Shown piece by piece: positions 10,007-41,996 of a stretch of 64,000 nucleotides of DNA; the first letter of the stretch is position 1, and every line of letters begins with the position of its first letter. The notes below the pieces were generated by a model. That model worked only from the letters and a program-made list of their open reading frames with translations, ran no database searches and was not told where the DNA came from. The translations under genes and the position numbers were made by a program. The stretch comes from Prevotella sp. (GTDB lineage Bacteria > Bacteroidota > Bacteroidia > Bacteroidales > Bacteroidaceae): assembly GCA_034101015.1 (NCBI GenBank), contig JAXEKN010000055.1:37243-101242 (forward strand). Direction: 5' to 3'.

Positions 10007-12397
10007 ATGAGAAAAATAGCTATTCTGATTTCATTTGTAATGATGACAATAACAGCATTGGCACATGACAACTCATTGCCAATGAAACTATGGTATGACA
10101 CTCCCGCACAGTTTTTCGAAGAGTCAATGCCTATAGGCAATGGCCGACTCGGTGCCTTGGTATATGGAGGTGCCGACGACAATATGTTGCAGTTTAATGA
10201 CATAACATTATGGACAGGCAAACCAGTAAACCGTAATGACGATGCCGACGCCCACAAGTGGATACCGGAAATCAGGAAAGCCCTTTTTAATGAAGACTAC
10301 AAGCTGGCCGACTCGCTGCAACTGAATGTACAGGGCAACAACTCGCAGTTTTACCAGCCACTCGCCACACTCCATATCACGGACAAGTCGCAAGCCAAGG
10401 CAACAAAATACTATCGCGAGCTTGATATCGACAGTGCCCTATGCAAGGACACATACACCAAAGACGGCGTAAGATTCACACGTGAGTACTTCGCCTCACA
10501 TCCCGATAATGTCATAGCCATGAGAATCAGGGCGGACAGACGGGGAGCCATCAACTGTACTCTATCGCTCACCTCCCTCGTGCCCCACAAGGTGAAGGGC
10601 AACATGCTCGCTGACGATGGAAACAACAAGGGAGGCACCCTCACCATCACCGGACATGCCACAGGCGACCCTATGCAGAGCACACACTACTGCGGACAAC
10701 TGAGCGTGAAGACCGACGGCATGGTGACTGTGGCAAGCGACTCCTCGCTTGTCATCAACGGGGGAACGGATGCAGTGATATACTTCGTCAACCGCACCAG
10801 CTTCAACGGTTTCGACAAGCATCCGGTAAGCCAAGGTGCACCGTATCTCGACCAGGTGGCCGACGACCAATGGCATTTGGTCAACTACAGCTACGACCAA
10901 CTGCGCGAGCGACATGTGTCAGACTATAAATCCATCTACGACCGCTTTCGGTTAGTGCTTGGCAAACCCGTGTTTGACTCACGGCGCACCACCGCCCGGC
11001 AATTGAAAGACTATACCGACAACAAGGGAGGCAACAGTTATCTTGAGACCCTTTATGCCCAATATGGCAGATACCTGCTGATCAGTTGCTCACGCACCGC
11101 CGCCGTGCCGGCCAACCTTCAGGGACTGTGGACACCCCACCTGTGGTCGCCCTGGCGAGGCAATTACACCGTCAACATCAACCTTGAGGAAAACTATTGG
11201 CCCGCAGAGGTGGCCAACATGCCTGAGATGGTCATGCCGCTCGACGGATTCATCACAGCCCTTGCCGCCAACGGCGCATATACCGCCAAGTGCTACTATG
11301 GCATCAACGAGGGATGGTGCTCCAGCCATAACAGTGACGTCTGGGCAATGACCAACCCTGTGGGCGAAAAGCGAGAATGGCCGGAATGGGCCAACTGGAA
11401 CATGGGTGGCGCATGGTTGGTCAATGCACTGTGGGACCACTATCTCTTCGGACTCGACAAGTCATACCTCCGCACCACGGCATATCCACTGATGAAGGGC
11501 GCAACCGAATTCTGTATGGCATGGCTTATAGAAAACCCGAACAACCCTGATGAACTGATCACTGCACCAAGCACATCACCCGAAAACGAATACAAGACCG
11601 ACAAGGGATATCACGGAATGACCATGTACGGAGGCACTGCCGACCTGGCCATCATCCGTGAGTTGCTAACTAATACATTAGAGGCAGCCAAGACACTCAA
11701 TCTGGACAAGGAGTTGCAGAAAAGAATAGAAGCCACACTCTCACGTCTGCACCCTTATACCATCGGCAAGCGAGGTAACCTCCAGGAGTGGTATTACGAC
11801 TGGGACGACTGGGACTGGCAGCACCGCCACCAATCCCATCTCATCGGTCTATATCCCGGCTCACATATCACCACATCACAACCCCGGCTGATGGATGCCT
11901 GTCGCAAGTCATTGGAAATCAAAGGTGACAACACCACAGGATGGAGCACCGGATGGCGAGTGAACCTTTGGGCACGGCTTGGCGATGCAGCGCAGGCGTA
12001 TCATATCTATCAGAAACTGCTCACATACGTCAGTCCTGACAACTATGACGGTGAGGACAAGCGCCGCTCAGGCGGCACATATCCCAACCTCTTTGACGCC
12101 CATCCGCCATTCCAGATTGACGGCAACTTTGGCGGAACGGCAGGGGTATGCGAAATGCTCATGCAGAGCGACGGCAAGACCATCACACTGCTGCCCGCCC
12201 TGCCCAAGGAATGGAGCGAGGGAAGCGTGAGCGGCATACGTGCCCGTGGAGGTTGTGAGATCGCCATGGAATGGAAAGCCTCCAAGGTGACTGGACTGAA
12301 GATATCGTCAAAGACCAACCGTAAACTGACGATTCACTGCAATGGTGAGACAAAGACCGTCAAGATGAAAGCAGGCAAGACAACAACGATAATCTGA
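10007..12397 (+). CDS. Glycoside hydrolase family 95 (alpha-L-fucosidase / alpha-L-galactosidase type), secreted
   Basis: LWYDTPA...[55 protein letters not shown]; Sec signal peptide. Confidence 0.95.
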
Positions 12398-12401
12398 CAA
12401 T

Positions 12402-13283
12402 ATGGATAAACGACCTATAAGAAACACCAACTTCCAAATTGCACAGGAAGACCACAACAAGTCGGACTTCATTGCCGACGACATCATACTCAGTGAAAAA
12501 ATCCAGGAACTCGCCATAACCAAGGGACCAAGGCGAATGACATTCATACTCATTGCCCTATGCACACAAGGTAATGCAGAGTTTACCATCGACACCCAAA
12601 AGCGACAGGTGAGCAAGAATGATATCATCATCATCTCCGACCGCCACGTCATTGATGACTTTAAGGCATCCGATGACCTCAAGGGCCCCGCCATGATGCT
12701 GTCGGTCAACTTCTTCTATGACGTGATACACGACGTAAGGGACATCGCAATGCTGTTTCAGTTTTCGAGAAACCACCCAGTGGTGTCGGTCAATGAGGAG
12801 GAGGTGCAGCTCTTCATGGAATACTTCCAGATGCTTAAGAGAAAAATAGCGGAGGATACCAACCTTTTCCGCCGCGACCTGGTCCGTACATTGGTACTGG
12901 CAATGTTCTACGACTTCAGCAATGTCATATATCGTGTGCAGCAGACAGAAAACACCAAACAGTCGCGCGCCGACATGATATTCACACAGTTTATCAGGCT
13001 CGTTGAAGACCACTATCGTGAGGAACGCCGTGTGGGATGGTATGCAGAGCAGTTGTGCATCACACCGAAATATCTCTCTGAGACAGTGAAGTCGGTGAGC
13101 AAGAACACACCCAATGAGTGGATTGACAAATATGTGACACTGGAGGCCCGCATACTTCTCAAGACCACATCCATGAGCATAAAGGAGATTTCCGATGAGC
13201 TGCATTTCCCCAACCAGTCCTTTCTCGGCAAGTTTTTTAAGGAGCATGTGGGCATGTCGCCAACAGCCTACCGAAAACAATAA
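12402..13283 (+). CDS. AraC-family transcriptional regulator
   Basis: C-terminal VGWYAEQLCITPKYLS...IKEISDELHFPNQSFLGKFFKEHVGMSPTAYR. Confidence 0.95.
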   Translation: MDKRPIRNTNFQIAQEDHNKSDFIADDIILSEKIQELAITKGPRRMTFILIALCTQGNAEFTIDTQKRQVSKNDIIIISDRHVIDDFKASDDLKGPAMMLSVNFFYDVIHDVRDIAMLFQFSRNHPVVSVNEEEVQLFMEYFQMLKRKIAEDTNLFRRDLVRTLVLAMFYDFSNVIYRVQQTENTKQSRADMIFTQFIRLVEDHYREERRVGWYAEQLCITPKYLSETVKSVSKNTPNEWIDKYVTLEARILLKTTSMSIKEISDELHFPNQSFLGKFFKEHVGMSPTAYRKQ

Positions 13284-13428
13284 CCCCTTCGAAGCATGCC
13301 GAAATGCCTTGAATAAAGAGATTATTCGTGTTTTTCTCTTTCAATGATACAAAAAACAAAGTTTTCGCTACAAATTCAGATATTGTTTTGGTATTTAATT
13401 ACTACCTTTGCACCAAACTTAGAAACTT

Positions 13429-16400
13429 ATGGACAATAGAGAAATTATTTCCGACTATTATCACCGCAACCTGGCTGAGATGCAAAACTTCGCGATGCGT
13501 ATCGTGAAGAATCAGGTTGTGGCTGAGGATATAGTGCAAGACACCTTTCTCCGCCTTCTCGCCACAAAGGAAATAATCATCGAACGTAGTCTGTCGCCTT
13601 TCGTCCACAAAATGATACGCAACCAATGTATCGACTATCTCCGACGTACAAAGTATCATCAGCTTGTCTTTCAGCAACTTGCCTTGGCTTCCACCTCATG
13701 GAATAATATCGAGTCTGAGGTATATGCCAAGGAACTTAAAGAAGCAATCGACGAAGGAATCACACTTATGCCAAAACACTATCAAAACATATATCAAATG
13801 AGTATTTATGAAGGTAAGAAGGTGGCTGAGATAACTGCCACAATGGGTATCAGTTACAAGGCAACTGAAAACTATCTTGGAAGGGCGCGCGCTGCTATGC
13901 GCTCTTATTTGCGCAAGTGTATGATTATCATTAGTATGCTGGCTATGGCGATTTCATCGGATGCAGCCGACAGATTTGTCGGTTTCATCGGAGGCGACCT
14001 GCATCTCACAGCCAATGGTGCAGTTGTCATCTCAGTGGATGATGGCGACCATAAAGGAGTAAGGATAGCCGCCAACTCGTTGGCAGCCGACATACTCAAT
14101 GTCACTGGTCGTCAATCAGCCTTCAGTCAATCCAATGCCAACATTATCATCGGCACTATGGGCAAGTCGAAGACCATCGACACCATTCTAAAGCAGAACA
14201 GGCTCACCAACGAGCTAAAGGGCAAGACCGAGAAATACATTATCACCACTATTGACAACAAGATGATTATAGCCGGCAGCGACTATCGTGGCACTATCTA
14301 CGGCATCTACGAGATGTCGCGCCAGATGGGTGTGTCGCCATGGTATTGGTGGGCGGACGTGCCAGTGGTGAAGCATAGCGACATATATATAAATAAAGGT
14401 GTATATACAGACGGCGAACCCGCAGTGCGCTATCGTGGTATCTTCCTCAACGACGAGGCACCATGCCTTACTACATGGGTCAACAATACGTTTAAGACCA
14501 ACTATGGCGGTCATGAGTTTTATGAGAAGGTGTTTGAACTCATCCTGCGCCTTCGCGGCAATATGATGTGGCCGGCCATGTGGGGATGGGCATTCTACGC
14601 CGACGACCCGCTCAACCAAAAGACCGCCAATGACATGGGCATCATTATGGGTACGTCCCACCACGAGCCGATGGCACGCAACCATCAGGAATGGGCGCGT
14701 CATCGCAAGGATTATGGAGCATGGAACTATTCCACCAACAAGGAGGTGATAAAGAAGTTCTTTCGTGAGGGAATAGAGCGCATAAAAGGCACCGACGACA
14801 TGGTGACAATAGGTATGCGAGGTGATGGTGACGAGGCCATGAGCGAGGAAGCCGACACACGTTTATTGGAAGAGATAGTAGCCGACCAGCGAAAGATCAT
14901 CGAACGTGTGACGGGAAAGAAAGCCAAGGAGACCCCACAGGTGTGGGCATTGTATAAGGAAGTGTTGGACTATTACGACAAGGGAATGCGTGTGCCTGAC
15001 GATGTCATCATGCTCCTATGTGATGACAACTGGGGCAACGTGCGTCGTGTGCCGACAGACAAGGAACGCCAGCACAAGGGCGGATGGGGCCTGTATTATC
15101 ATGTTGACTACGTGGGTGCACCCCGCAATACCAAGTGGCTCAACGTCACCCCGACTCAGAATATGTGGGAACAGCTCACCCTGGCGTCACAATATGGCAT
15201 TGACCGCCTGTGGATACTTAATGTGGGCGACCTCAAGCCTATGGAATATCCCATCACCCTCTTTATGGACATGGCATGGAATCCCGCTAAGTATGATGCC
15301 GCCACACTCACTATGCATACCGAGCAATTCTGTCGCGAACTGTTTGGTTGCTGTCAGGCTACCGAGGCAGCACGTATCCTTAACCTCTGTTGCAAGTATG
15401 CCGGACGCAGCACCGCCGAGATGCTCGATGCCTCTGTGTATGACGCTGCCGGAGGGGAGTGGGCGAAAGTGGTGGCGCAATATGACGCCCTTGAAGCCGA
15501 TGCCCTTCGACAGTTTGTCAGCCTTGACGAGACTTATCGCGATACCTATCGCCAAATCATACTCTTCCCTGTCCAGGCCATGGCCAATCTCCATCGGATG
15601 TATCAGGCCAAGGCCATGAACGACATGCTCATGAAGAATGCCGGCGGCAAGTATTCTGAATACACCGCTGCCGAGATCAACCATTGGGCTGACCGTTGCG
15701 CCGAAGCCTTCCGTAGGGATTCCTTGCTATGTGATGAATACAATACCAAGATGTCGGGAGGCAAATGGAATGGTATGATGATACAAAAGCATATAGGCTA
15801 TACTTCATGGCACGACGGATTCCCACGCGACATAATGCCCGCTGTGGCACGTGTGGAAGCCAACTCCGATGGTGGCGATGTAATACCGATGGAGAATGGC
15901 GTGGCCAACATTGAGGCGATGGCGTACTTCAGCAAGACCGACGGCAAGGAAGCCCGCTGGACGGAAATCCCATTTATGGGCAAGTCGCGCTCCGCCCTTT
16001 CCCTTCAGCCATATACCGCCGCTATCGACGGTGCTTCACTCACATACAAGTTCTCCACTGTCTGCGACAACACTGGCTGTGGGAAAGCCTGTGAGAGTGG
16101 CGATGCCCCGGAAGCACGCATACACATCATCGTGAAATCCACCCTTGACTTCCTCAACGGCAATGGATTCACATATAACGTGAGTGTTGACGGCGGTGAA
16201 CCGCAAACAGTCAACTTCAACTCCGACCTCAACGAAAAGCCGGAGAATATCTACGACATATACTATCCCACAATAGCCAGGCGAGTGGTTGACAAGACGG
16301 TGACGGTCAGACTGCCCAAGACATCCGACGGCATGCACACCATTACCATCACCCCCAACTCCCCAGCCATTGTATTCGAGAAGATTGTCGTTGACTGTCG

Positions 16401-16431
16401 CAAGACTCCAGGAAGAATATCACATCTATAA
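13429..16431 (+). CDS. In-frame fusion: ECF sigma-70 factor (aa 1-165) + signal-like hydrophobic segment + GH115 alpha-glucuronidase-type enzyme
   Basis: Sigma region 2 AEDIVQDTFLRLL...IRNQCIDYLRR and region 4 GKKVAEITATMGISYKATENYLGRAR. The junction at 13897-13970 has no stop codon. GH115 motifs GVSPWYWWAD, YRGIFLNDE, GTSHHEPM, GMRGDGDE, DDNWG, YYHVDYVG. Confidence 0.9.
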   Translation: MDNREIISDYYHRNLAEMQNFAMRIVKNQVVAEDIVQDTFLRLLATKEIIIERSLSPFVHKMIRNQCIDYLRRTKYHQLVFQQLALASTSWNNIESEVYAKELKEAIDEGITLMPKHYQNIYQMSIYEGKKVAEITATMGISYKATENYLGRARAAMRSYLRKCMIIISMLAMAISSDAADRFVGFIGGDLHLTANGAVVISVDDGDHKGVRIAANSLAADILNVTGRQSAFSQSNANIIIGTMGKSKTIDTILKQNRLTNELKGKTEKYIITTIDNKMIIAGSDYRGTIYGIYEMSRQMGVSPWYWWADVPVVKHSDIYINKGVYTDGEPAVRYRGIFLNDEAPCLTTWVNNTFKTNYGGHEFYEKVFELILRLRGNMMWPAMWGWAFYADDPLNQKTANDMGIIMGTSHHEPMARNHQEWARHRKDYGAWNYSTNKEVIKKFFREGIERIKGTDDMVTIGMRGDGDEAMSEEADTRLLEEIVADQRKIIERVTGKKAKETPQVWALYKEVLDYYDKGMRVPDDVIMLLCDDNWGNVRRVPTDKERQHKGGWGLYYHVDYVGAPRNTKWLNVTPTQNMWEQLTLASQYGIDRLWILNVGDLKPMEYPITLFMDMAWNPAKYDAATLTMHTEQFCRELFGCCQATEAARILNLCCKYAGRSTAEMLDASVYDAAGGEWAKVVAQYDALEADALRQFVSLDETYRDTYRQIILFPVQAMANLHRMYQAKAMNDMLMKNAGGKYSEYTAAEINHWADRCAEAFRRDSLLCDEYNTKMSGGKWNGMMIQKHIGYTSWHDGFPRDIMPAVARVEANSDGGDVIPMENGVANIEAMAYFSKTDGKEARWTEIPFMGKSRSALSLQPYTAAIDGASLTYKFSTVCDNTGCGKACESGDAPEARIHIIVKSTLDFLNGNGFTYNVSVDGGEPQTVNFNSDLNEKPENIYDIYYPTIARRVVDKTVTVRLPKTSDGMHTITITPNSPAIVFEKIVVDCRKTPGRISHL

Positions 16432-16492
16432 TAACAAAAAATTGAAATCAATTTGCATATTTCGGAGAATATGTGTAACTTTGCACCCCGAA

Positions 16493-17455
16493 ATGAGAAT
16501 GTTTGATTTCATAAAACGATTTTCACTGCCCGTATCCCTCCTTACGGGCAGTGCTTTGTATCTGCTCTTTTCGAGAGTCAGCATACTGATGCCGGTGGGT
16601 GACGTGGCAGGTCCGATGCTATGCGACCATGTCATGCCGGTCATTCTGTTTGTCATCCTCTACGTGACATTCTGTAAGATACAGATCAAGGAGATGATGC
16701 CGCGCACATGGCACTTTATCCTTCAGGGCATACGCACCTTGCTCTCGGCAGCCATGGTGGGACTCATCGTCATCACCGACGATGCCGACCTCCGCCTTAT
16801 CCTTGAAGGCGTGTTCATCTGTATTATCTGTCCCACAGCTGCCGCCGCACCTGTAGTCACGGAGAAACTTGGTGGCAGCATAGCTTCCCTCACAATCTAC
16901 ACCATCATCGCCAATGTGGTGACCTCCATCATCATTCCCTTCTTTTTCCCCATCGTGGAGAAAGAGGCCGACATCACCTTCCTTTCCGCAATGCTGATGG
17001 TGCTGCGCAATGTCACCGTGGTGCTCATCGTGCCGCTTGTCTTGGCATTGCTTAGTCGCAAGGTCATTCCCTCGTTTACCGATTGGCTTAAGAGTAAGCG
17101 CGACCTTGCCTTCTATCTCTGGTGTATCAACCTTGCCATCGTGTCGGGAGTGACCGTCAGGAACATTCTCGCTTCCACAGTGTCTGGCACTACATTGCTT
17201 TGGCTGCTTGTACTTCCCTTGTTCGTTTGCATTGGTCTGTTTGCCATCGGAAAGTCTGTGGGCAAGCCATACGGCGAGAGTATCAGTGCCGGTCAGGCTC
17301 TTGGCCAGAAAAACACGGTGGTAGGCATCTGGCTCACAATCAGCTTTCTCAATCCCCTTGCCGCTGTGGCCCCCGGTGCATACGTGCTATGGCAGAACAT
17401 GGTCAATGCGTGGCAGCTATGGTATAAGGAAAAATATGGAAAACTGAAGTGGTAA
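16493..17455 (+). CDS. Bile acid:sodium symporter (BASS) family membrane transporter
   Basis: About 10 hydrophobic segments, ICPTAAAAPVVTEKLGG, GQALGQKNT; promoter TAACTTTG just upstream. Confidence 0.8.
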   Translation: MRMFDFIKRFSLPVSLLTGSALYLLFSRVSILMPVGDVAGPMLCDHVMPVILFVILYVTFCKIQIKEMMPRTWHFILQGIRTLLSAAMVGLIVITDDADLRLILEGVFICIICPTAAAAPVVTEKLGGSIASLTIYTIIANVVTSIIIPFFFPIVEKEADITFLSAMLMVLRNVTVVLIVPLVLALLSRKVIPSFTDWLKSKRDLAFYLWCINLAIVSGVTVRNILASTVSGTTLLWLLVLPLFVCIGLFAIGKSVGKPYGESISAGQALGQKNTVVGIWLTISFLNPLAAVAPGAYVLWQNMVNAWQLWYKEKYGKLKW

Positions 17456-22635: not shown

Positions 22636-24987
22636 TTACTTTCTGATGATAACCTTCTTGCCGTTGATGATATACATCTTGTTAGGCTCAAGGGTCTTAA
22701 TCACACTTGCATCGCCACGCTTAACCAATACACCGGCTGCATTGTAAATCTCAACATTCTTCTCTTTTGCAAACATTGCCTGGATCTCTGTGGCGCATCC
22801 AACACCCCACTCAAATGTAAGGTCTTTGTCAACTACATTTGAATTGTTCGTATATTCAAATACGAAGCCGGCAGGCAAGAAGAGCTTGTAGATACCTGTT
22901 GCTGTGTATTCATTTCCAAGATTAACTGTCATAATATTATATGGGTATCCATAATAAATATTTGTGTTTCCAAGATTTACAACTTCTCCACTTGGCAATG
23001 TGAATGTAGGCTGCTTAGTAACAAAGTCAAAATCAACACCATTTTCTTCAGAAATCTTATTGAATGTAACAGTGATATTAGACAAGCTCTCAACTGTTGA
23101 ACCATTTGCAGGAGTTACCTCAAATTCTGCCTTTGGAGCCTCGATAGTCCATGTGAAAGTAATGTCCTCCTCATTTGATGTATCACCTTCCCAACCATAA
23201 ACTACAGCACCAGCAGGTATTGTCAGAGTGTATGTGCCAGGAGTTGTGATTTCTTCTCCAAGAGTGAAGATGCCTTCATTATTAGCAGTACCATAAGTGC
23301 AGTCAACCTTGTACTCATTGTTGTCCGCATCAGTTATGACGGGGTTACCATTACCCCAGCCAATGATTTCCTGACCATCGAATGTAACGCTGATAGTCTT
23401 CAGACTTTCAACAACACCCTCAGCAGGATTTACAGTGTAAGTCTGGACAACAGGAGCCTCAATCTCGTACTTAAAGTAGAATGGCTCTGTGTTTACGTTA
23501 GCCTCATCGTTGTTGAAGTAAACAGCACCAGCGGGGATAGTAATTGTGTAATTTCCAGGCTCAGTGAATGAACCTTCATCAAGAAGAGCAGCTCTCAACA
23601 GGTTGTTGCCCTGTCCCGGAGTGTAGAGAGGCATGGCGTATGTGTATGTCCATCCATACTTCTCCAAAGAAATAGTAGGAGCAAATGCACCTGTCCATGC
23701 AATGTTATCTACACCGTTGAATGTGAAGGTGAAGCCATCAAGTGCAGATACAGGACCTTGGGCTGGGTCAGAGATTGTAGATATTGTTTCTGGAACGTTT
23801 GTTGTAGGAGCGGCAACGGTGAATGTGTATGTTTCAGCCTTGCAAGGCTTAGATGTAAATCCATCACCAGTCTGGTCGAGGTTGAACACTCCCTTAGGTA
23901 CATTCACGGTGTATGTACCAGGAGTTGTAATAACGTTGTCCAAAGAAACGATAACTTCATTCACTAAGTAATTATAATTATCTCTTTGTGCAAATGGAAT
24001 AACACTCTCTATTTCTGTAGATGTAGCAACAACGTTGCCTACACCATCTGTAATGGTGATAGTTTTGCCAGTATATGCATCCAGAATACCATCAGTATAT
24101 GCAAACTTCAGTGCATTTACAAAGCTAGGCTTAGCTGTTTCAGATGGCCAAGCAATATTGGCAGTAGGCAGGTTGAAGTCAACGTCAACATTTACCTGAT
24201 AAGCAGAAGCTTCTTTCTCGCCGCTATTACCCTTTACTGCGCCACCATTGTCCTTGCCATAGGCATATACGTTAAGAGTAAACTGGTGGTAAGTTGAAAG
24301 GATAGACTCTGGGATAGTGACAGTGACGGTCTTCTCATCTTCAGACAAAGCTACACCGCAATCCACAGTGCCATCACCCATTCCACGAGGAATTGTGGAT
24401 TTTACATTCTGAACAGGACCGCTGTATGTGAAGCTGATGGTGTTCTGACTTGGATCGGCGAGAGCAAACTGAGACTCCGAAGTAACGATAGTATTGGGAT
24501 CCGGGTCAACGAGAGTCACGGAGCTATATTCATACTGCTTTGTGCCACCCTTGATAACCTGGTCAGTGCTGGTGAAGTTTGAAGGAACATCTCCTGCGGC
24601 ATCAGGGTTGGTCTCATATCCTGTGATAATAACAGGATAATCAACACCTGAGGCCAGTTCGTAATCAAGTGGAATCCAGAAAGTGAATTTTCCATCATCA
24701 CCCTTGGCTACGCTCGACCAAGTCTTCATGTAGGTGTCACCCTCGCCAAGCTTGAGAATCAGGTAATTGACATTTGCGTCATCCTCAAGAGTTACAACAA
24801 CGTTGTAGCCAGCGATAAGTTTCTCGACAGATTCTGCCGCAAGAAGGTCAATCTTCTCAGTACCACCCTCATTTTGCATAACGAGACTTTTGAGTGTCTG
24901 TGCATTGACATTCCCACCAAAGAGGGTGAGAAGCATCACAGCGAGAGTCACGAGCATGCCGTGCTTTGAGTAAAATTCTTCTCTCAT
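22636..24987 (-). CDS. Secreted multi-Ig-repeat protein with T9SS-type C-terminal domain
   Basis: At least three ~100-aa repeats (PAQG/PAEG/PANG...TF...Y.hTIPAG.h); tail IYNAAGVLV...MYIINGKKVIIRK. Confidence 0.72.
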   Translation of the reverse strand: MREEFYSKHGMLVTLAVMLLTLFGGNVNAQTLKSLVMQNEGGTEKIDLLAAESVEKLIAGYNVVVTLEDDANVNYLILKLGEGDTYMKTWSSVAKGDDGKFTFWIPLDYELASGVDYPVIITGYETNPDAAGDVPSNFTSTDQVIKGGTKQYEYSSVTLVDPDPNTIVTSESQFALADPSQNTISFTYSGPVQNVKSTIPRGMGDGTVDCGVALSEDEKTVTVTIPESILSTYHQFTLNVYAYGKDNGGAVKGNSGEKEASAYQVNVDVDFNLPTANIAWPSETAKPSFVNALKFAYTDGILDAYTGKTITITDGVGNVVATSTEIESVIPFAQRDNYNYLVNEVIVSLDNVITTPGTYTVNVPKGVFNLDQTGDGFTSKPCKAETYTFTVAAPTTNVPETISTISDPAQGPVSALDGFTFTFNGVDNIAWTGAFAPTISLEKYGWTYTYAMPLYTPGQGNNLLRAALLDEGSFTEPGNYTITIPAGAVYFNNDEANVNTEPFYFKYEIEAPVVQTYTVNPAEGVVESLKTISVTFDGQEIIGWGNGNPVITDADNNEYKVDCTYGTANNEGIFTLGEEITTPGTYTLTIPAGAVVYGWEGDTSNEEDITFTWTIEAPKAEFEVTPANGSTVESLSNITVTFNKISEENGVDFDFVTKQPTFTLPSGEVVNLGNTNIYYGYPYNIMTVNLGNEYTATGIYKLFLPAGFVFEYTNNSNVVDKDLTFEWGVGCATEIQAMFAKEKNVEIYNAAGVLVKRGDASVIKTLEPNKMYIINGKKVIIRK

Positions 24988-25111
24988 AATCAAATGTTTT
25001 AAAAGTTAATGTATTAATATTTAAGTGTTATTATCAAATTCACGTGGCAAAATTACATAAAATTATTTAGAACACAAAACATTTTTGTGAAAAAGTGATG
25101 AAAATAAGCAA

Positions 25112-25195: not shown

Positions 25196-28100
25196 CTATT
25201 CGACAATAGTCTTCTTGGCTTTGTTGCCCTTCTTGACAATCACGAGACCCTTGTCGGCGGCGCGACCACCCACATTATAGGTATGTGTAGGTCCGTTGCC
25301 GTCCTCACTGTCCATCTCGATGCCCTCGATGCCAGTTGAGTCAACAACCTTCGCACGAGCCACGTTGAGTATCTCGCCAGTGGTGGTGTTGATGGCCATC
25401 ACAGTCACCTTGCAGTTGTTGATGTCGTTGACATACTGTGCATTCTCCTTCACACCGAATGAGATGGTGGCAGTATATGTCTCTCCGCTCTTCATGGTGT
25501 TGGGCAGGAGACCTGTCTGGCCGAGATAGTTGTTGGCGGGATAGAGGGCGCGTGCCACGTCGTTGAACGTGTAAGGATAAGCCACGCTCTTGCCGTATAT
25601 GCCGCCTGCCTGCCATTCACCGAGGTCGTCATCGTTGATGTTGTAGAGGTTGTTCTGCTGATAGCCAGTCAGGTTGTCTTCAGTGACTACGCAGAAGAGT
25701 CCGATGGTGGTGTTGTCGATATCGAGAGCCGGGCGCAATGTCACGGGTATGGAGAGCTTGTCGGTGGCAGCATCGTATGAAGCGGTGATGTCAAGGTCAG
25801 CCTCGGCGGCATTCGACATGATATTGCCAACCCTTTCGAGCCACAGTATCTGGTTGGACGTAGAGAAGACATAATCCACCTCACCCTGGTTGGTGATGCT
25901 TGTCATGGGCGAGTAAGCGCCTGCATATCTGTGGATAGTGGCTGAAGGAGCCGCATTCAGTCCGAGGAACGACTGCACGTAGGATGTCATGCCGCTCTCA
26001 AGGTTGTCGCCGGTATATGTGTGATAGCAAAGAGGAATGACCTTTTCGCCATATACCGACTCCAGTTTTTCGAGGGCAAGGTGTCCGAGCGGGCAGTTCT
26101 GGCAGCCCTGTCCAGTCATCTCCTCAAGCACTACCTTCTTTTCAGTCTGGAACAAGAGGTTCTTGATGGTTACATCCATCTGATATGATGTCTCACCGTC
26201 ATTGAGCACAGCCTGAACGGCGAAGGTATTACTCTTACCGGTGGCGAGGGCAATCTCCTTGGTGAAGTCGAAGTCGAAGGTGTCGCCCTTCTTCATCTCC
26301 ACGTTGTCCTTGCCCACTTCCTCGATGACATTGCCTTCGGAGTCAATGAGCTTGACGGCAATCTTCTGGTATGTCTTGGTCTCGTTGGCAATAGTGGCTG
26401 TACCCTTCACCTTCTGTGATGTGCCGTTGACCTGTGATGTCTCCACACCTGATAGTGAGATGGTCACGTCCATCATCCTCTTCACCGCAATGTCAGTGAC
26501 GAAGATGGCACTTTGGTTGGTGTTTTCATTGACGAAGGCGATATATACCTTCTTGCCGGCATATTTGGCGAGATCTACTGTGTAGTCCGTCCAGTCGCCG
26601 TCGAGAGTGTTCTCGTATTCTCCGGGGAAGAGCTGCTCGTTGAAGACCACGTCACCGTCGGTGCGCATCTTTGCCACGATGTCAGCGTCAAGTTCGTTGA
26701 TTACATCGTCACTTTCATATACGATTACCTTCAGGATGTCCTTTTTCGTGCTCAGATAGCTCTGTCCCTTGAATGAAAGTACTGTGTTCTTGTCGGGAAC
26801 GGTGATCTGCGGACAAACCATCCAGTCGTTAGACTTGCCTGTAGGCATATACATGGAATGGGAGATGGCACATGTGTTGCTGTAGTCATCATCCGCACCG
26901 TGAATCCACGGCATGTTCTTCTCGAAGCCCCATTCACTCATGGCAGAGGTGGGTTTCTTCTGGTCGCCGTCGTAGAGCAACATATTGTTTACACCGCCTG
27001 AGAAGTCTTCGAAGATGATATTGTTGTCGTCGCCCTGAATGGTGCGCTCATATACACCCTCGTATTCCACTGAGCATTCAGTGTTCTTGCAACTGCCGCT
27101 GAGGTCGGTCACAGCACCGGCGGGCAGCACTACGCGATAGTTGGTGCCCTTGTAGAGCAACTGAGTGGCTACGGGATAAACCATCACTTGCTTGTATGTC
27201 TCGGAGGTCTTTCCTGAAAGGATGCTCAACTCACATTGTGGCTCATCCTCGCCTACCTTATATAAATAAGCCTTGGCACCGGAAGCCACGGCCACCTCTG
27301 TGTCGAACGAGAACACCACTGGGCTTGTCGTCATGTCAAACTGTCCCATCATACTGCCGTTTTCGGGCGAAACACCAGTCATAGTGAGGTCCTTGGAGCC
27401 ATAGCCCTTGTATTTCACGGTAATCTCGCTGTTGCTGCGTCCGGTGTCGCCCTTCAGACAGATAGCCCCCGCGGGTATGACGAGAGTGTATTCCTTGCCC
27501 TCCTCCAATGAGAAGGTGCGGAAACCGATGTTGACAATCTTGGAGTTGTTGGCGTTGACCTCAAACTTAATGGCGTTCTTGACCACGTTGCCCTCGGCGT
27601 CCTTCACTGCTATGCCCGACATATCGCCAATGACCTCCACATTGCGGCTGAAGGTAAGTGAGATGCTTGATATCTTGGATAATGTGGCGCCGTTCATAGG
27701 CGTGATGCTGAACTTCTTCAGCAGATCGACCTTCTCGCATACAGAGCCAAATGTCTCTGGCACAGTGAGATGGTAGTTTTCTGTGTTGATATATGCTATT
27801 GACACCATCGACTTGCAGTCGGCAGCCACGGAGATAGCCAGACCAGTGGCGTCATATCCCGTGTGGGTGTAGTAATTGATGCCATATACCTGGCTCAGTA
27901 TCTCGTCCAGGCCATACCAGTAACCGTTATGTCGTACATAAAGCGAGCGGCTGGGGCTTACGGCAGGAGTGGCGGCATACACCGTGCCCTTGTTGTCGAT
28001 GCTCACGCAGCCCTTGTCGATGTCCTCTGAGTCGAGATAATACTCCATCTCCTTGGTCTCGGTGTTGTAGCGGAAGGGGGCGCGCTCGTCGTTCATGGTA

Positions 28101-28894
28101 TAGAGCACACCCGACACCCACTTGCCGTTGGGGCTGACGCATATACCGTCGAGTCCATAAACATTGTCGTGTTTCTGAGTATAAGGGAGTTTCTTCGTGT
28201 CGTCGAAGTCAAAGACGATGGGGTCGAATGTCTCCGTCTGGCGGTCATAGAGGAAATAGACCACGTCCTGCGGATAGCTGAAGCTGATACATCCCGTGAT
28301 GTAGCGCGCGTCGGCTGACAGACCCGTGAATCGTGTCATCAGCTGGTACTCGCCCGACAGGTCTTTCTGCGGGATGTTGGGAGTGCTGATCACTTTTCCC
28401 GTCGTAAGGTCCCACATCGTCGGCACCTCAAAGAGCATGTTGGAGTTGATGCCGCATGTACCCACGGCATACTTGCCGTCGGGAGTGACAGCATTGATGC
28501 GTCCGTTCTCGCATCCCTCGGGCAGCGACACCTTGGTCCACTCCTTCGTGGCGGTGTTCCATGTGGCGGGATAACCCTGATATGAGCCGACAACCATCTG
28601 TCCGTCGTCAGTCACGTCGCCAGCGTTGCTGACGATGACACCGTCACCATCGGCGAGGTTGATGGTCTCCTTGGTTTGCAGATTGATGAGCTTGGGGAAG
28701 GCATCCTGGTCGTTGGCATTCGGACCGTATGCTATGGCCCATTTGCCATTGTCCGACATTGCACGGAATGTCGAGCCGTCACTCATCGTGTAGGTGGTCA
28801 GTTGGGCACTGGCATTTTGAGCCGCCATACCCAAAGTCGAAAAAAGACATGCCACAAGCATGCAGATTTTCATAGTAATTCCGTTTCTCAGCAT
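25196..28894 (-). CDS. Large T9SS cargo: beta-propeller-like N-terminus, two Ig-like domains, cleaved-adhesin-like domain, Omp28-related domain (CxxC), C-terminal sorting domain
   Basis: xSxDGKyAVG propeller repeats; NDWMVCPQI...FSFKGQS...KKVYIAFVN adhesin-like motif; VVLEEMTGQGCQNCPLG; GEILNVAR; tail TYNVGGR...VKKGNKAKKTIVE. Confidence 0.8.
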   Translation of the reverse strand: MLRNGITMKICMLVACLFSTLGMAAQNASAQLTTYTMSDGSTFRAMSDNGKWAIAYGPNANDQDAFPKLINLQTKETINLADGDGVIVSNAGDVTDDGQMVVGSYQGYPATWNTATKEWTKVSLPEGCENGRINAVTPDGKYAVGTCGINSNMLFEVPTMWDLTTGKVISTPNIPQKDLSGEYQLMTRFTGLSADARYITGCISFSYPQDVVYFLYDRQTETFDPIVFDFDDTKKLPYTQKHDNVYGLDGICVSPNGKWVSGVLYTMNDERAPFRYNTETKEMEYYLDSEDIDKGCVSIDNKGTVYAATPAVSPSRSLYVRHNGYWYGLDEILSQVYGINYYTHTGYDATGLAISVAADCKSMVSIAYINTENYHLTVPETFGSVCEKVDLLKKFSITPMNGATLSKISSISLTFSRNVEVIGDMSGIAVKDAEGNVVKNAIKFEVNANNSKIVNIGFRTFSLEEGKEYTLVIPAGAICLKGDTGRSNSEITVKYKGYGSKDLTMTGVSPENGSMMGQFDMTTSPVVFSFDTEVAVASGAKAYLYKVGEDEPQCELSILSGKTSETYKQVMVYPVATQLLYKGTNYRVVLPAGAVTDLSGSCKNTECSVEYEGVYERTIQGDDNNIIFEDFSGGVNNMLLYDGDQKKPTSAMSEWGFEKNMPWIHGADDDYSNTCAISHSMYMPTGKSNDWMVCPQITVPDKNTVLSFKGQSYLSTKKDILKVIVYESDDVINELDADIVAKMRTDGDVVFNEQLFPGEYENTLDGDWTDYTVDLAKYAGKKVYIAFVNENTNQSAIFVTDIAVKRMMDVTISLSGVETSQVNGTSQKVKGTATIANETKTYQKIAVKLIDSEGNVIEEVGKDNVEMKKGDTFDFDFTKEIALATGKSNTFAVQAVLNDGETSYQMDVTIKNLLFQTEKKVVLEEMTGQGCQNCPLGHLALEKLESVYGEKVIPLCYHTYTGDNLESGMTSYVQSFLGLNAAPSATIHRYAGAYSPMTSITNQGEVDYVFSTSNQILWLERVGNIMSNAAEADLDITASYDAATDKLSIPVTLRPALDIDNTTIGLFCVVTEDNLTGYQQNNLYNINDDDLGEWQAGGIYGKSVAYPYTFNDVARALYPANNYLGQTGLLPNTMKSGETYTATISFGVKENAQYVNDINNCKVTVMAINTTTGEILNVARAKVVDSTGIEGIEMDSEDGNGPTHTYNVGGRAADKGLVIVKKGNKAKKTIVE

Positions 28895-29055
28895 AGTATT
28901 ATTACTTAATAAAATTAAAATCTTCGGCAAAGTTACACAATAAATATTTATTTTTGCTTGTTTTATTGCTTTTTCTAAGAAAATAAAGCATTATTTAATA
29001 GAAATTTCGTAATTTTGCAGCAAAAACATAACGAAATGCGTTAATTCAATTAATT

Positions 29056-35874: not shown

Positions 35875-35907
35875 AATGGTATTCTATATTATAGTATATT
35901 AAAATGC

Positions 35908-38900: not shown

Positions 38901-38958
38901 CGAGAGCCACAGTAGCGATGATAAGGGTAAAGATGCTGATAAAAAATCTCTTAAACAT
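35908..38958 (-). CDS. SusC/RagA TonB-dependent receptor
   Basis: VVVGYGTQRK, NPLYVVDG, IEVLKDASACAIYGSRGSNGVILVTTK, KWETSQQ, YPSSRTYMFGVNLTF. Confidence 0.97.
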   Translation of the reverse strand: MFKRFFISIFTLIIATVALAQQGKTITGTVTDGATGEPLIGATVKEVGSSNGTITDFDGNFTLKAQGNELQVSYVGYVTLTVKADANGRCDVKMKSDNEIEEIVVVGYGTQRKSDLTGSLSSMSEKDFKNYATSNVSNMMAGKAAGVFVSTSSGQPGADAVVRVRGLGTVNDCNPLYVVDGQFMDNISSINPSDIERIEVLKDASACAIYGSRGSNGVILVTTKGGQKGATTVTFDAAIGVRSSYKALDMMNSDQYYDYITTAFAGDATFDKTKFTNQYKKGYSTNWWDECTRSAFNQNYNVGIRTGNETSRTSLSLGYVDEQGTIIETDFKRITARLSHEYDINKYLTVGGVVNIAKMKKRDANSLPSFDFILKADPFTPVINPLVDPSSANYEYNKWAPTEWSFDPNPVSVLKLNDRHNDLFNVFGNLFAKINFTKDFSYRVQFSFERNHDTFYGFKPIYEAIFSDDMLGNRESKYNTETQMTNNSGLVQNYLVEQRLNYNHTFGKHRLDLMGAMTYEKNTSEGINAFKRGALGNDEAYRVLDAGTVGDQVSGPKQTTSMLSYIARVNYSFDDRYLLTASFRADGSSRFAKNNRWGYFPSFSLGWRLSNEKFFQNSSISKVVDNVKVRAGWGQNGNQRIDANAPLTLIGTNNEKQWYFGNGFHTGYVPTYNGNPDIKWETSQQTNIGIDVTLFHNALDMSFDFYVKNTKDMLLQRPIPSFSGYVNDPFFNAGDLRNTGFDFVANYRNNIGKVNYNIGLNLSTYKTKVTKLNGEYLTGNVSRTYEGGPIGRFYGFKQIGIFQNQQEIDSYVDKNGTKIQPHAKPGDFKFAKLTEEGELNDNDRTFIGDPNPDLIFGFNLGAEWKGLDITMAFQGTIGNDIYNSSKGTLGTPGYQNALADAYTKAWRKEGDNAVYPRITTENDNQNFRTSSFMVEDGSYLRLQNLQIGYTLPGKWIKALQYVKNCRIYMSAQNLFTITGYSGLDPDLGSNSPLNMGYDNTRYPSSRTYMFGVNLTF

Positions 38959-38979
38959 AATTAGTCTTTACTTATAAGG

Positions 38980-40716: not shown

Positions 40717-40727
40717 AGTTGTTGTGA

Positions 40728-41978: not shown

Positions 41979-41996
41979 ATAAAGGCTGTGAATTGG

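What the first reader, a model, noticed from the sequence alone, without database searches (positions are those of the whole stretch)
13429..16431. ECF sigma factor fused in frame to a secreted GH115 enzyme: candidate one-polypeptide sensor-enzyme-transcription factor
Seen: one 1000-aa ORF. Residues 1-165 are a complete ECF sigma (regions 2 and 4). It runs without a stop through RSYLRKC-MIIISMLAMAISSDAA into a full-length GH115. The sigma's basic last helix plus the hydrophobic stretch and DAA end look like a Sec signal (n-, h- and c-regions). The internal ATGs (13897, 13921) have non-A-rich upstream contexts (GC-rich at 13897), unlike the A/T-rich starts typical of this window, which argues against independent GH115 initiation. 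No FecR-type anti-sigma is present in the window. Known: Bacteroidota glycan ECF sigmas are normally separate proteins held by membrane anti-sigmas and freed by proteolysis. Inference: the sigma is membrane-tethered with the hydrolase outside the cytoplasm, and signal-peptidase plus intramembrane cleavage releases it, coupling enzyme export or substrate engagement to transcription. Alternative: a recent deletion removed the sigma stop codon and joined two neighbours, since the junction falls about where such sigmas usually end.
Basis: partly seen in the sequence, partly recalled or inferred. Interest (0 to 1): 0.9.

Follow-up and report, generated by a model that had tools for sequence, protein, structure and literature searches.

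The report
Sigma factor fused to secreted glucuronidase
In a group of pig-gut Prevotella, a complete transcription sigma factor is encoded in one reading frame with the export signal of a secreted xylan-debranching enzyme; the fusion is old, conserved and under selection, which suggests that the sigma factor is made, and probably freed, only when the enzyme is exported.

Summary
ORF 13429-16431 (1000 aa) encodes a full ECF sigma factor (aa 1-~163), a 23-residue signal-peptide-like segment (157-179) and a full GH115 alpha-glucuronidase. It is neither an assembly error nor a recent accident. Independent metagenome contigs cross the junction unchanged, and two metatranscriptome contigs span it. 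Five lineages 75-77% identical keep the same fusion in the same GH95-AraC-fusion synteny. Synonymous sites are saturated, and dN/dS is 0.04-0.15 for the sigma part and 0.04-0.09 for GH115.

The join sits at the natural C-terminus of the sigma factor. Its last basic helix serves as the n-region. The hydrophobic core is only 12-13 residues. The S-x-A|A-D site aligns with the cleavage site of stand-alone GH115 precursors. There is no anti-sigma domain, no FecR gene, no internal promoter box and no start-like context at the internal ATGs.

In relatives GH115 was deleted four independent times while the sigma factor was always kept; one of these lineages carries a stop codon exactly at the sigma/hydrophobic border.

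Best reading: a sigma factor carried as the cytoplasmic extension of a cleavable signal peptide and released after export. A substrate-sensor role for GH115 is not supported. This is a new variant of membrane-tethered one-polypeptide ECF sigma factors. The mechanism is inferred, not shown.

The parts
13343..13375 (+). Conserved upstream blocks (AATGAwACAAA ... AAAGnATTnGCTACAAAT): candidate operator, possibly for the neighbouring AraC-type regulator
   Evidence: Alignment of the AraC-to-fusion intergenic region from 9 lineages. Any function is inferred.
13403..13410 (+). Bacteroidota housekeeping-type -7 promoter box TAnnTTTG (TACCTTTG), 19 nt before the ATG
   Evidence: TAnCTTTGCAC is conserved in all 9 lineages. 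It is the only such box on the + strand between 12300 and 16475. RNA contigs of two metatranscriptomes begin at 13426 and 13428. The motif consensus is from my own knowledge of Bacteroides promoters.
13429..16431 (+). Single ORF (1000 aa + stop) encoding sigma factor, signal-like segment and GH115
13429..13917 (+). ECF sigma factor, aa 1-163 (sigma2 about 11-75 = 13459-13653; sigma4 about 105-157 = 13741-13899). Its last basic helix (M157-K163) also serves as the n-region of the signal segment.
   Evidence: Pfam and NCBIfam. PDB sequence matches to SigL, SigE and SigW end at aa 162. AF2 sigma2 pLDDT 80-91 and sigma4 62-78; Foldseek top hits are all ECF sigma factors. dN/dS 0.04-0.15. Stand-alone relatives end 3-9 residues after this helix.
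13897..13965 (+). Signal-peptide-like segment, aa 157-179: n-region MRSYLRK, h-region CMIIISMLAMAI (13918-13953), c-region SSDA. Predicted signal peptidase I cut between A179 and A180 (13965|13966).
   Evidence: Aligns with the N-terminal signal peptides and the (S/A)-x-A|A-(D/E)-(R/K)-F-V site of stand-alone GH115 enzymes; A179 and A180 are invariant in all 11 sequences. The 11-mer hydropathy is 2.75 but the best 19-mer is only 1.3. dN/dS over 157-205 is 0.10-0.14. No signal-peptide predictor was available; cleavage is inferred.
13897..13899 (+). Internal ATG (Met157), invariant in the clade and aligned with the start Met of stand-alone GH115 enzymes: a possible but poorly placed internal start. 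A second invariant Met165 lies at 13921-13923.
   Evidence: invariance; upstream A 0.10, GC 0.70. Met/Val/Ile at this position is also common in stand-alone sigma relatives.
13966..16428 (+). Mature GH115 alpha-glucuronidase, aa 180-1000 (catalytic domain 14413-15420; GH115_C 15892-16404)
   Evidence: 1075 bits against Bacteroides ovatus alpha-glucuronidase GH115 4C90, aligned over almost the full length. Pfam. dN/dS 0.04-0.09 overall and 0.01-0.045 in the catalytic domain.
12402..13283 (+). AraC-family regulator (293 aa), always immediately upstream of the fusion: candidate transcriptional controller
   Evidence: HTH_18 and HTH_AraC. Synteny holds in every lineage examined. Any regulatory link is inferred.
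10007..12397 (+). GH95 glycoside hydrolase, first gene of the conserved GH95-AraC-fusion cluster. Its stop lies 4 nt before the AraC start.

Best explanation
The gene encodes a precursor in which a complete ECF sigma factor occupies the position of a 156-residue N-terminal extension of the Sec signal peptide of a GH115 alpha-glucuronidase.

Shown: there is one ORF. RNA contigs cover both halves. The architecture is kept in at least five lineages whose synonymous sites are saturated. The sigma part, the signal-like segment and the enzyme are each under purifying selection. No anti-sigma domain or gene is present.

Inferred: transcription starts from a housekeeping-type promoter 19 nt upstream of the ATG, probably controlled by the adjacent AraC-type regulator. 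The ribosome makes the sigma factor first. The basic last helix of sigma4 plus the 12-13-residue hydrophobic core then act as an internal signal sequence. GH115 is translocated and cut off by signal peptidase I at S-x-A|A, as in its stand-alone relatives. The sigma factor stays attached to the 23-residue signal-peptide remnant at the inner face of the membrane, where its sigma4 C-terminus is held against the bilayer. It becomes free for RNA polymerase when the remnant is cleaved (site-2-protease or signal-peptide-peptidase type) or slips out of the membrane.

On this reading the sigma factor is produced one-for-one with the enzyme, and its release depends on export rather than on a separate anti-sigma factor. 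Its regulon is unknown.
For: The ORF and its domains are confirmed. The fusion is conserved in P0002-P0005 and L025, 988-1003 aa, in the synteny GH95-AraC-fusion. Selection: sigma part dN/dS 0.04-0.15, residues 157-205 0.10-0.14, GH115 0.04-0.09, with dS mostly above 1. In a search of 1.84 billion representative proteins the next relatives of this sigma factor are stand-alone proteins of 160-175 aa that end 3-9 residues after the MRxYLRK helix, so the join is at the natural sigma C-terminus with no linker and no anti-sigma domain. The signal-like segment aligns with genuine N-terminal signal peptides of unfused GH115 enzymes, with the same (S/A)-x-A|A-(D/E)-(R/K)-F-V site and invariant A179 and A180. 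The h-region has signal-peptide length, not anchor length. Two metatranscriptome contigs (13281-14382 and 13426-14451) span sigma part, junction and enzyme. No TAnnTTTG box lies inside the sigma part. The internal ATGs look like ordinary internal codons. No FecR is present in the window. Literature: RseP removes remnant signal peptides in E. coli (PMC8144685), and the sigma/anti-sigma hybrid IutY is released by Prc and RseP (PMC5411451, PMC8999054).
Against: There is no direct evidence for membrane targeting, cleavage or release, and no signal-peptide or topology predictor could be run. A signal sequence placed behind a 156-residue folded domain is unusual for signal peptidase I substrates. 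Met157 and Met165 are invariant, and Met157 aligns with the start of stand-alone GH115 enzymes, so separate initiation of the enzyme cannot be excluded. The tether is not essential. GH115 was lost four times, and in lineage P0122 a TCA-to-TAA change at codon 166 leaves a free 165-aa sigma factor. The coupling may therefore be dispensable, or a neutral frozen accident. The AF2 model of the full protein was unusable (pLDDT 50), and the continuous helix 143-177 in the short model has low confidence. No target promoter was found.
Confidence: 0.5

Rival explanations
1. Uncleaved type II membrane protein. The hydrophobic segment is a permanent anchor, and GH115 is an extracytoplasmic sensor of glucuronoxylan-type ligands. 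Ligand binding triggers site-1 then site-2 proteolysis, which frees the sigma factor. This is the first reader's 'substrate engagement' version, analogous to RsgI6-GH10 and ECF52.
For: The architecture sigma-hydrophobic segment-glycan-binding domain resembles ECF52 SCO4117 (PMC5826349) and, as two proteins, SigI6/RsgI6 with a GH10 sensor module (PMC4711584). No anti-sigma gene is present.
Against: The hydrophobic core is only 12-13 residues, with a best 19-mer hydropathy of 1.3, and is followed by a helix-breaking Pro or Ser and a conserved S-x-A|A site identical to that of secreted stand-alone enzymes. The catalytic domain evolves like a working enzyme, with dN/dS 0.01-0.045, whereas RsgI6-GH10 has very low catalytic activity (PMC4711584). 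GH115 was deleted four times with the sigma factor retained and still constrained. No anti-sigma domain lies between sigma4 and the membrane segment.
Confidence: 0.15
2. Two functionally unrelated products locked together by a neutral accident. An old loss of the sigma stop codon joined neighbouring genes. The enzyme is made mainly from an internal start (Met157 or Met165), or the precursor is simply cut apart. The fusion persists because undoing it needs both a stop and a new start, not because coupling is useful.
For: Met157 and Met165 are invariant, and Met157 aligns with the stand-alone start Met. The join lies exactly at the natural sigma end. The sigma factor survives without GH115, and in one lineage without the hydrophobic segment. 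The closest stand-alone relative, P0129, has no adjacent anti-sigma gene, so this sigma lineage may not need one.
Against: The contexts of the internal ATGs are GC-rich and A-poor, unlike presumed starts in the window. No internal promoter box is present. Met at position 157 is also common in stand-alone sigma factors, so its conservation need not mean a start. Even in this scenario the sigma factor can only be made as part of the precursor, so processing is still required. It differs from the best explanation only in whether the coupling is adaptive.
Confidence: 0.25
3. Cytoplasmic fusion. The internal hydrophobic segment is not recognised for export, and the long isoform stays in the cytoplasm with GH115 acting as a ligand-binding regulatory C-terminal extension of the sigma factor, as in ECF41/ECF42. 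The exported enzyme comes only from the internal start.
For: C-terminal extensions are the second most common mode of ECF regulation (PMC7826278). Signal sequences placed far from the N-terminus can fail to be recognised in some systems (PMC6513831, a eukaryote).
Against: The hydrophobic, positively flanked segment would be exposed to the targeting machinery as it leaves the ribosome, and internal membrane segments behind N-terminal cytoplasmic domains are targeted co-translationally in bacteria (PMC5674894). The internal start context is poor. The deletion lineages keep the sigma factor without the supposed regulatory domain.
Confidence: 0.06
4. Artefact or pseudogene: a chimeric assembly, a sequencing error removing a stop codon, or a recent strain-specific deletion.
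For: None found.
Against: The identical junction appears in contigs of independent metagenomes and metatranscriptomes. The same architecture appears in lineages 23-25% divergent in protein, with saturated synonymous sites and low dN/dS.
Confidence: 0.01

Closest known systems
IutY of Pseudomonas putida (ECF243), a sigma/anti-sigma hybrid protein
   Same: One polypeptide carries an N-terminal ECF sigma factor, one membrane-spanning segment and a periplasmic part. The sigma factor is freed by proteolysis involving the site-2 protease RseP (PMC5411451, PMC8999054).
   Different: IutY carries a FecR-type anti-sigma domain and works with an outer-membrane receptor. Here no residues lie between sigma4 and the hydrophobic segment and there is no FecR. 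The periplasmic part is a complete enzyme behind a signal-peptidase site. The phylum also differs.
Actinobacterial ECF48/ECF52/ECF53 sigma factors, e.g. SCO4117 of Streptomyces coelicolor
   Same: An ECF sigma factor is fused through transmembrane helices to an extracytoplasmic carbohydrate-related domain, and release by proteolysis has been proposed (PMC5826349, PMC8999054).
   Different: Those proteins have a zinc-finger anti-sigma domain, true transmembrane helices, a proline-rich linker and a non-catalytic carbohydrate-binding module. Here there is no anti-sigma domain, the hydrophobic core has signal-peptide length, and the partner is a full GH115 enzyme.
SigI/RsgI biomass-sensing pairs of Clostridium thermocellum (RsgI6 with a GH10 module)
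   Same: A glycoside-hydrolase-family domain outside the cell is physically linked to control of an alternative sigma factor, with RseP as the final protease (PMC4711584, PMC10328401, PMC12203970).
   Different: Those are two separate proteins. The sigma factor is SigI-type, not ECF. The GH10 module is a nearly inactive binding domain on an anti-sigma factor. Here the sigma factor itself is fused and the GH115 evolves like an active enzyme.
Canonical Bacteroidota glycan-sensing ECF sigma / FecR anti-sigma / SusC-like transducer systems
   Same: The sigma part is most similar to this family: TIGR02985 is the best NCBIfam hit. More distant relatives sit in sigma-FecR-SusC operons.
   Different: The score is below the family cutoff (106.6-111.4 against 126.4). 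The window has no FecR and no adjacent SusC. The closest stand-alone relative also lacks a neighbouring anti-sigma gene.
Remnant signal peptides cleared by the site-2 protease RseP; eukaryotic signal-peptidase-released signalling domains (iRhom2)
   Same: After signal peptidase cuts, the N-terminal piece stays in the membrane and is processed by an intramembrane protease (PMC8144685). In iRhom2, signal peptidase cleavage releases an N-terminal cytoplasmic domain that then acts on transcription (PMC7618786).
   Different: No bacterial case is known to me in which the piece left behind is a sigma factor. This is an analogy of mechanism, not homology, and it was not tested here.
BoAgu115A (PDB 4C90), xylan alpha-1,2-glucuronidase of Bacteroides ovatus
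   Same: The enzyme part aligns over almost its whole length (1075 bits).
   Different: BoAgu115A and the roughly 115 closest unfused homologues have an ordinary N-terminal signal peptide and no sigma domain.

Membership tests
ECF (group 4) sigma-70 family | Sigma2 and sigma4 domains only, with conserved region 2 and region 4.2 motifs | tested here: met
   Pfam r2 47.8 bits and r4_2 29.1 bits, both above cutoffs. TIGR02937 67.7-72.8 bits against cutoff 42.9. PDB sequence hits SigL, SigE and SigW. Foldseek top hits are all ECF sigma factors. DIVQD, RN..D..R and the LGxARxxMR helix are conserved in the clade.
ECF (group 4) sigma-70 family | Binds RNA polymerase core and directs promoter-specific transcription | not testable with these tools
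   Supported only indirectly by purifying selection (dN/dS 0.04-0.15).
Bacteroidota TIGR02985 sigma factors with FecR anti-sigma and SusC-like transducer | Score above the subfamily cutoff | tested here: not met
   106.6 bits (whole protein) and 111.4 bits (sigma part alone) against cutoff 126.4.
Bacteroidota TIGR02985 sigma factors with FecR anti-sigma and SusC-like transducer | Adjacent FecR-type anti-sigma gene | tested here: not met
   No FecR in +/-10 kb. No hit in the six-frame window at E<=10, with a working positive control.
Sigma/anti-sigma hybrid proteins (IutY type; ECF48/52/53) | Anti-sigma domain (FecR N-terminal or zinc-finger type) between sigma4 and the membrane segment | tested here: not met
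   The hydrophobic segment starts at C164, directly after the last sigma4 helix. Stand-alone relatives end at the same place. There is no Pfam hit between aa 157 and 220.
Sigma/anti-sigma hybrid proteins (IutY type; ECF48/52/53) | Stable transmembrane helix | tested here: inconclusive
   The hydrophobic core is 12-13 residues. The 11-mer hydropathy is 2.75 but the 19-mer only 1.3. No topology predictor was available.
Sigma/anti-sigma hybrid proteins (IutY type; ECF48/52/53) | Release of the sigma factor by regulated intramembrane proteolysis | not testable with these tools
   Inference only.
Sec-type signal peptide cleaved by signal peptidase I | Basic n-region, 7-15-residue h-region, and c-region with small residues at -3 and -1 | tested here: met
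   MRSYLRK / CMIIISMLAMAI / S-S-D-A|A. The segment aligns with the signal peptides of unfused GH115 enzymes, and the site is conserved in all fused and unfused sequences.
Sec-type signal peptide cleaved by signal peptidase I | Located at the N-terminus of the precursor | tested here: not met
   It starts at residue 157, behind a folded sigma factor, unless translation also starts at Met157.
Sec-type signal peptide cleaved by signal peptidase I | Actual cleavage and export | not testable with these tools
   Needs tagging, N-terminal proteomics or fractionation.
Glycoside hydrolase family 115 | GH115 catalytic domain plus GH115 C-terminal domain, full length | tested here: met
   PF15979 486 bits, PF17829 88 bits. 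4C90 1075 bits over residues 41-836 of 856.
Glycoside hydrolase family 115 | Alpha-glucuronidase activity | not testable with these tools
   Very low dN/dS in the catalytic domain (0.01-0.045) is consistent with an active enzyme.

The most novel reading that the evidence does not exclude
A sigma factor that is part of a signal peptide. The ECF sigma factor is the cytoplasmic n-region extension of a cleavable Sec signal peptide. Signal peptidase frees the enzyme on one side of the membrane, and clearance of the signal-peptide remnant frees the sigma factor on the other. Successful export of one enzyme molecule therefore licenses one sigma molecule, without any anti-sigma factor. Short hydrophobic tails on about a third of related Bacteroidota ECF sigma factors could mean that membrane parking of sigma4 is a wider, unrecognised feature from which this fusion evolved.
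Probability: 0.35. Interest if true: 0.85.

Novelty: new variant of a known kind. Interest (0 to 1): 0.72.

Why it matters
ECF sigma factors are normally controlled by a separate anti-sigma protein. The few known one-polypeptide versions still carry an anti-sigma domain. Here a naturally conserved protein joins a bare sigma factor directly to the export signal of a working glycan-degrading enzyme. If the inferred processing is right, it is a minimal export-coupled transcription switch: the act of secreting an enzyme releases a transcription factor. That would add a mode of ECF control. It would give a bacterial parallel to signalling by signal-peptidase-released domains in eukaryotes. It would also offer a compact design for synthetic secretion reporters. 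The relatives provide ready-made controls: the enzyme is deleted in four lineages, and one of them carries a stop exactly at the border, so the question is directly testable. If the coupling proves neutral, it remains a clear case of a gene fusion locked in because separating the two genes again needs two mutations.

Tried and rejected
1. AF2 of the full 1000-aa protein with an 11-sequence alignment gave mean pLDDT 50 and was unusable. The 180-aa model was adequate only for the sigma domains.

2. I searched for an internal promoter. No TAnnTTTG box lies inside the sigma part. RNA data were available only as assembled contigs, so transcription start sites and depth steps could not be read reliably.

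3. I looked for the sigma factor's own target promoter by aligning regions upstream of GH95 across lineages. Start-site differences made the alignment uninformative.

4. I tried a post-deletion dN/dS test using L016 against L026. They are too similar (dS 0.011) to say anything. Amino-acid diversity within the deletion clusters was used instead. It is only suggestive: sigma part 0.022-0.026 against stub 0.077-0.086, Fisher p = 0.016 in one cluster and not significant in the other.

5. The 5' deletion breakpoints cluster at about aa 192, 199, 206 and 230. I considered arguing for selection against long enzyme stubs. I rejected this as unsafe, because the searches that found these proteins favour short ones.

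7. A programmed frameshift producing a free sigma factor was considered. A +1-frame TGA overlaps the ATG at 13921 in the window but is absent in the other lineages, so I rejected it.

8. The literature search found no description of a sigma-GH115 fusion. One member is in NCBI, named only 'sigma-70 family RNA polymerase sigma factor'.


Full report
OBSERVATION

The window holds a single ATG-to-stop ORF at 13429..16431 on the + strand, 1000 aa. Pfam places Sigma70_r2 at aa 11-75, Sigma70_r4_2 at 105-157, Glyco_hydro_115 at 329-664 and GH115_C at 822-992. NCBIfam confirms an ECF-type sigma factor: TIGR02937 scores 67.7 bits against a cutoff of 42.9. The best subfamily, TIGR02985, stays below its cutoff at 106.6-111.4 bits against 126.4.

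The enzyme part aligns over nearly its whole length with the Bacteroides ovatus GH115 alpha-glucuronidase 4C90 (1075 bits). The sigma part aligns with M. tuberculosis SigL and SigE and B. subtilis SigW up to residue 162. A short AF2 model gives pLDDT 80-91 for sigma2 and 62-78 for sigma4, and its best structural matches are all ECF sigma factors. The junction reads GRARAAMRSYLRKC-MIIISMLAMAISSDAA-DRFVG without a stop.

IS IT REAL?

The exact protein is called on three independent assemblies. At least 20 public runs, mostly pig-gut metagenomes from many studies, hold the sequence. Contigs of three DNA runs cross 12300-15774 with no indel or difference at the junction. Two metatranscriptome contigs, 13281-14382 and 13426-14451, cover the sigma part, the junction and the first 480-530 nt of the enzyme in one piece.

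IS IT CONSERVED?

Four further protein clusters (P0002-P0005; 988-1003 aa; 75-77% identical; 844, 87, 30 and 78 member sequences) have the same architecture. So does a Prevotella MAG in the species-representative genome set (L025, 1001 aa). All lie in the same neighbourhood, (RecO-S20-GyrB)-GH95-AraC-fusion.

Nei-Gojobori estimates on codon alignments give dN/dS of 0.04-0.15 for the sigma part, 0.10-0.14 for residues 157-205, 0.04-0.09 for GH115 and 0.01-0.045 for its catalytic domain. Synonymous sites are at or near saturation between most lineages. The fusion is therefore old, and all three parts are maintained by selection. The closest unfused GH115 enzymes (about 65% identical, 835-840 aa) lie in a different context without a sigma gene.

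ANATOMY OF THE JUNCTION

A profile of the sigma part was searched against 1.84 billion representative proteins. Only two representative clusters belong to this sigma clade. The next relatives are stand-alone ECF sigma factors of 160-175 aa, 29-36% identical, that end 3-9 residues after the helix corresponding to MRSYLRK. The join is thus at the natural C-terminus of the sigma factor, with no linker and no anti-sigma domain.

Downstream, the segment MRSYLRK / CMIIISMLAMAI / SSDA|A aligns column by column with the N-terminal signal peptides of unfused GH115 enzymes. The (S/A)-x-A|A-(D/E)-(R/K)-F-V site is conserved in all of them, and A179 and A180 are invariant. The hydrophobic core is 12-13 residues in every lineage. 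Its 11-mer hydropathy is 2.75, but the best 19-mer reaches only 1.3, which is signal-peptide-like rather than anchor-like. AF2 draws one continuous helix from 143 to 177, but at low confidence.

EXPRESSION SIGNALS

A Bacteroidota housekeeping-type -7 box (TACCTTTG, 13403-13410) lies 19 nt before the ATG and is conserved in nine lineages. Two further conserved blocks at 13343-13375 look like an operator. RNA contigs from two metatranscriptomes begin at 13426 and 13428.

Between 12300 and 16600 the only other such box on this strand is at 16476, in front of the next gene. None lies inside the sigma part. The 20 nt before the internal ATGs are A-poor and GC-rich (A 0.10 and 0.15; GC 0.70 and 0.45). 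Presumed gene starts in the window average A 0.44 and GC 0.26.

Met157 and Met165 are nevertheless invariant, and Met157 aligns with the start of unfused enzymes. Met, Val or Ile at that position is also usual in stand-alone sigma relatives. Internal initiation is therefore unlikely but not excluded.

NO ANTI-SIGMA FACTOR

Precomputed Pfam annotation shows no anti-sigma gene within 10 kb. A FecR profile built from the genes next to related sigma factors finds nothing in the six-frame translation of the whole window at E<=10, although it finds FecR in a control locus outside the training set. The closest stand-alone relative, P0129, also has no anti-sigma neighbour. More distant relatives sit in classical sigma-FecR-SusC operons.

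NATURAL EXPERIMENTS IN RELATIVES

A search with the sigma part alone returned proteins of 177-237 aa from the same GH95-AraC locus in which GH115 is gone. DNA comparison shows four independent events.
- L026/L016 lack 2386 nt, from about codon 206 to exactly the GH115 stop codon.
- L019-L022 lose homology after about codon 192. Some cluster members still end in a remnant of the GH115 C-terminus.
- In L023/L024 the enzyme from about codon 230 onward is replaced by 7.5 kb of cobalamin-related genes.
- L108/L109 lack the enzyme from about codon 199 to just past its stop. They also carry a TCA-to-TAA change at codon 166, exactly at the sigma/hydrophobic border. This leaves a free 165-aa sigma factor followed by decaying, now non-coding, remnants of the signal segment.

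Each deleted form is closest to a different full-length form. The sigma part of deleted lineages shows the same dN/dS against full-length relatives (0.09-0.12) as full-length forms show among themselves (about 0.085). Within two deletion clusters, amino-acid diversity is 0.022-0.026 in the sigma part and 0.077-0.086 in the stub after the cleavage site, and the tails end at variable positions. This last comparison is suggestive only.

The sigma factor is therefore the constant, selected element. The enzyme is dispensable, and the tether is dispensable in at least one lineage.

MECHANISM

Shown:
- The sigma factor in the window and its full-length relatives can only be synthesised as the N-terminal part of the precursor.
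- The precursor carries a conserved signal-peptide-type segment and cleavage motif.
- No anti-sigma factor is present.

Inferred, at about 50% confidence:
- The segment acts as an internal signal sequence.
- GH115 is exported and cut off by signal peptidase I between A179 and A180.
- The sigma factor is left on a 23-residue remnant at the membrane.
- It is freed when the remnant is cleaved or leaves the bilayer. In E. coli such remnants are cleared by the site-2 protease RseP (PMC8144685).

The neighbouring AraC-type regulator probably sets transcription.

Rivals:
- An uncleaved sensor protein (about 0.15). The short hydrophobic core, the conserved cleavage site, the enzyme-like evolution of the catalytic domain and the four enzyme losses all weigh against it.
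- A neutral, locked-in fusion, possibly with some internal initiation (about 0.25). This differs from the best model mainly in whether the coupling is useful.
- A cytoplasmic fusion with GH115 as a regulatory extension (about 0.06).
- An artefact (refuted).

COMPARISON WITH KNOWN SYSTEMS

Functionally the closest systems are one-polypeptide, membrane-linked ECF sigma factors. These are IutY of P. putida, released by Prc and RseP (PMC5411451, PMC8999054), and the actinobacterial ECF48/52/53 groups, such as SCO4117 with its carbohydrate-binding module (PMC5826349). The clostridial SigI/RsgI pairs, in which a GH10 module on the anti-sigma factor senses xylan, are also close (PMC4711584, PMC10328401, PMC12203970).

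The present protein fails the defining test of the hybrids, because it has no anti-sigma domain. It also differs in carrying a complete, enzyme-like hydrolase behind a signal-peptidase site, and in phylum. The large ECF reclassification lists many C-terminal extensions, but in the main-text passages I searched I found none of this kind (PMC7826278). Full-text searches found no report of a sigma-GH115 fusion. NCBI names one member simply a sigma-70 family protein.

VERDICT

The fusion, the signal-peptide reading and the absence of an anti-sigma factor hold. The 'recent deletion' alternative is refuted. The 'substrate sensor' idea is not supported.

This is a new variant of a known kind, restricted as far as seen to one Prevotella clade found mostly in pig-gut samples. 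Its mechanism is plausible but untested. Interest 0.72.

Noticed in passing
L016/L017/L018/L026 (about codon 206 to the GH115 stop), L019-L022 (from about codon 192), L023/L024 (from about codon 230; 7.5 kb insert), L108/L109 (from about codon 199): Four independent deletions or replacements of the GH115 part in relatives. All keep the GH95-AraC-sigma genes. Two of them end within a few bases of the GH115 stop codon.
   Followed up: yes
L108 3912-3914 (and L109), codon 166 of the fusion frame: In a GH115-less lineage a TCA-to-TAA nonsense change sits exactly at the border between the sigma factor and the hydrophobic segment. It creates a free 165-aa sigma factor. The former signal segment and stub follow as decaying non-coding DNA with small indels.
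   Followed up: yes
L027, L028, L029, L031-L033, L036-L039, L042, L051, L054, L071, L075, L084, L087, L091, L093, L103 and others (25 of 77 loci): About a third of the related Bacteroidota ECF sigma factors fetched end in a hydrophobic tail of about 9-12 residues directly after the last sigma4 helix (e.g. ...LKDYLPLLLLLLG). Several of these sit in sigma-FecR-SusC operons. This may be a membrane-association feature, and possibly the raw material for the fusion.
   Followed up: partly
L044 4935-5999, L048 4983-6083, L052 4974-6071 (and L059, L064, L065, L069, L070, L086): Chryseobacterium and Flavobacterium ECF sigma factors of about 355-366 aa. Each has a linker of about 65 residues, one strongly hydrophobic 19-mer (aa about 241-261) and a low-complexity tail of about 100 residues. 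These are apparent membrane-spanning sigma hybrids within the same phylum. Pfam sees only the sigma domains.
   Followed up: partly
window 13343-13375: Two sequence blocks upstream of the fusion's promoter (AATGAwACAAA and AAAGnATTnGCTACAAAT) are conserved across nine lineages whose synonymous sites are saturated. They may be the binding site of the adjacent AraC-type regulator.
   Followed up: partly
window 43310-47233 (+): A 1307-aa hybrid-two-component-like regulator has Reg_prop repeats, Y_Y_Y and an AraC-type HTH. It has no HisKA or HATPase_c hit, and only a sub-threshold Response_reg hit (24.9 bits against cutoff 30.2). The phosphorelay core may be degenerate.
   Followed up: partly
window 34321-43040 (-): A polysaccharide utilisation locus unrelated to the finding: SusD-like (34321-35874), SusC-like (35908-38958), a 577-aa protein with no Pfam hit, an MFS transporter (40728-41978) and GH130 (41997-43040), next to the regulator above. 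It looks mannan- or mannoside-directed.
   Followed up: no
window 16476-17455 (+): The gene after the fusion has its own TAACTTTG box at 16476. It most likely starts at 16493 (320 aa), not at the TTG at 16370 that overlaps the GH115 end. It has no Pfam hit and its sequence looks multi-spanning hydrophobic.
   Followed up: partly
L105 4084-6575: The closest stand-alone relative of the sigma factor (P0129, 169 aa, ends ...MRRHLRKCLRMAL) lies between a PASTA-domain gene and EF-P-GT2-RadC. In L004 those same genes lie a few kb upstream of the fusion locus. It has no anti-sigma neighbour.
   Followed up: partly
L004 10001-10045; L019 7891-7911: Some gene calls extend the fusion ORF upstream through a TTG or other start into the promoter region (15 or 7 extra residues). 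The conserved ATG aligned with 13429 is the more likely start.
   Followed up: no
window 25196-28930 (-): A 1243-aa protein with a Big_5 Ig-like domain and a C-terminal Omp28-like domain, next to a 784-aa protein without any Pfam hit (22636-24993).
   Followed up: no
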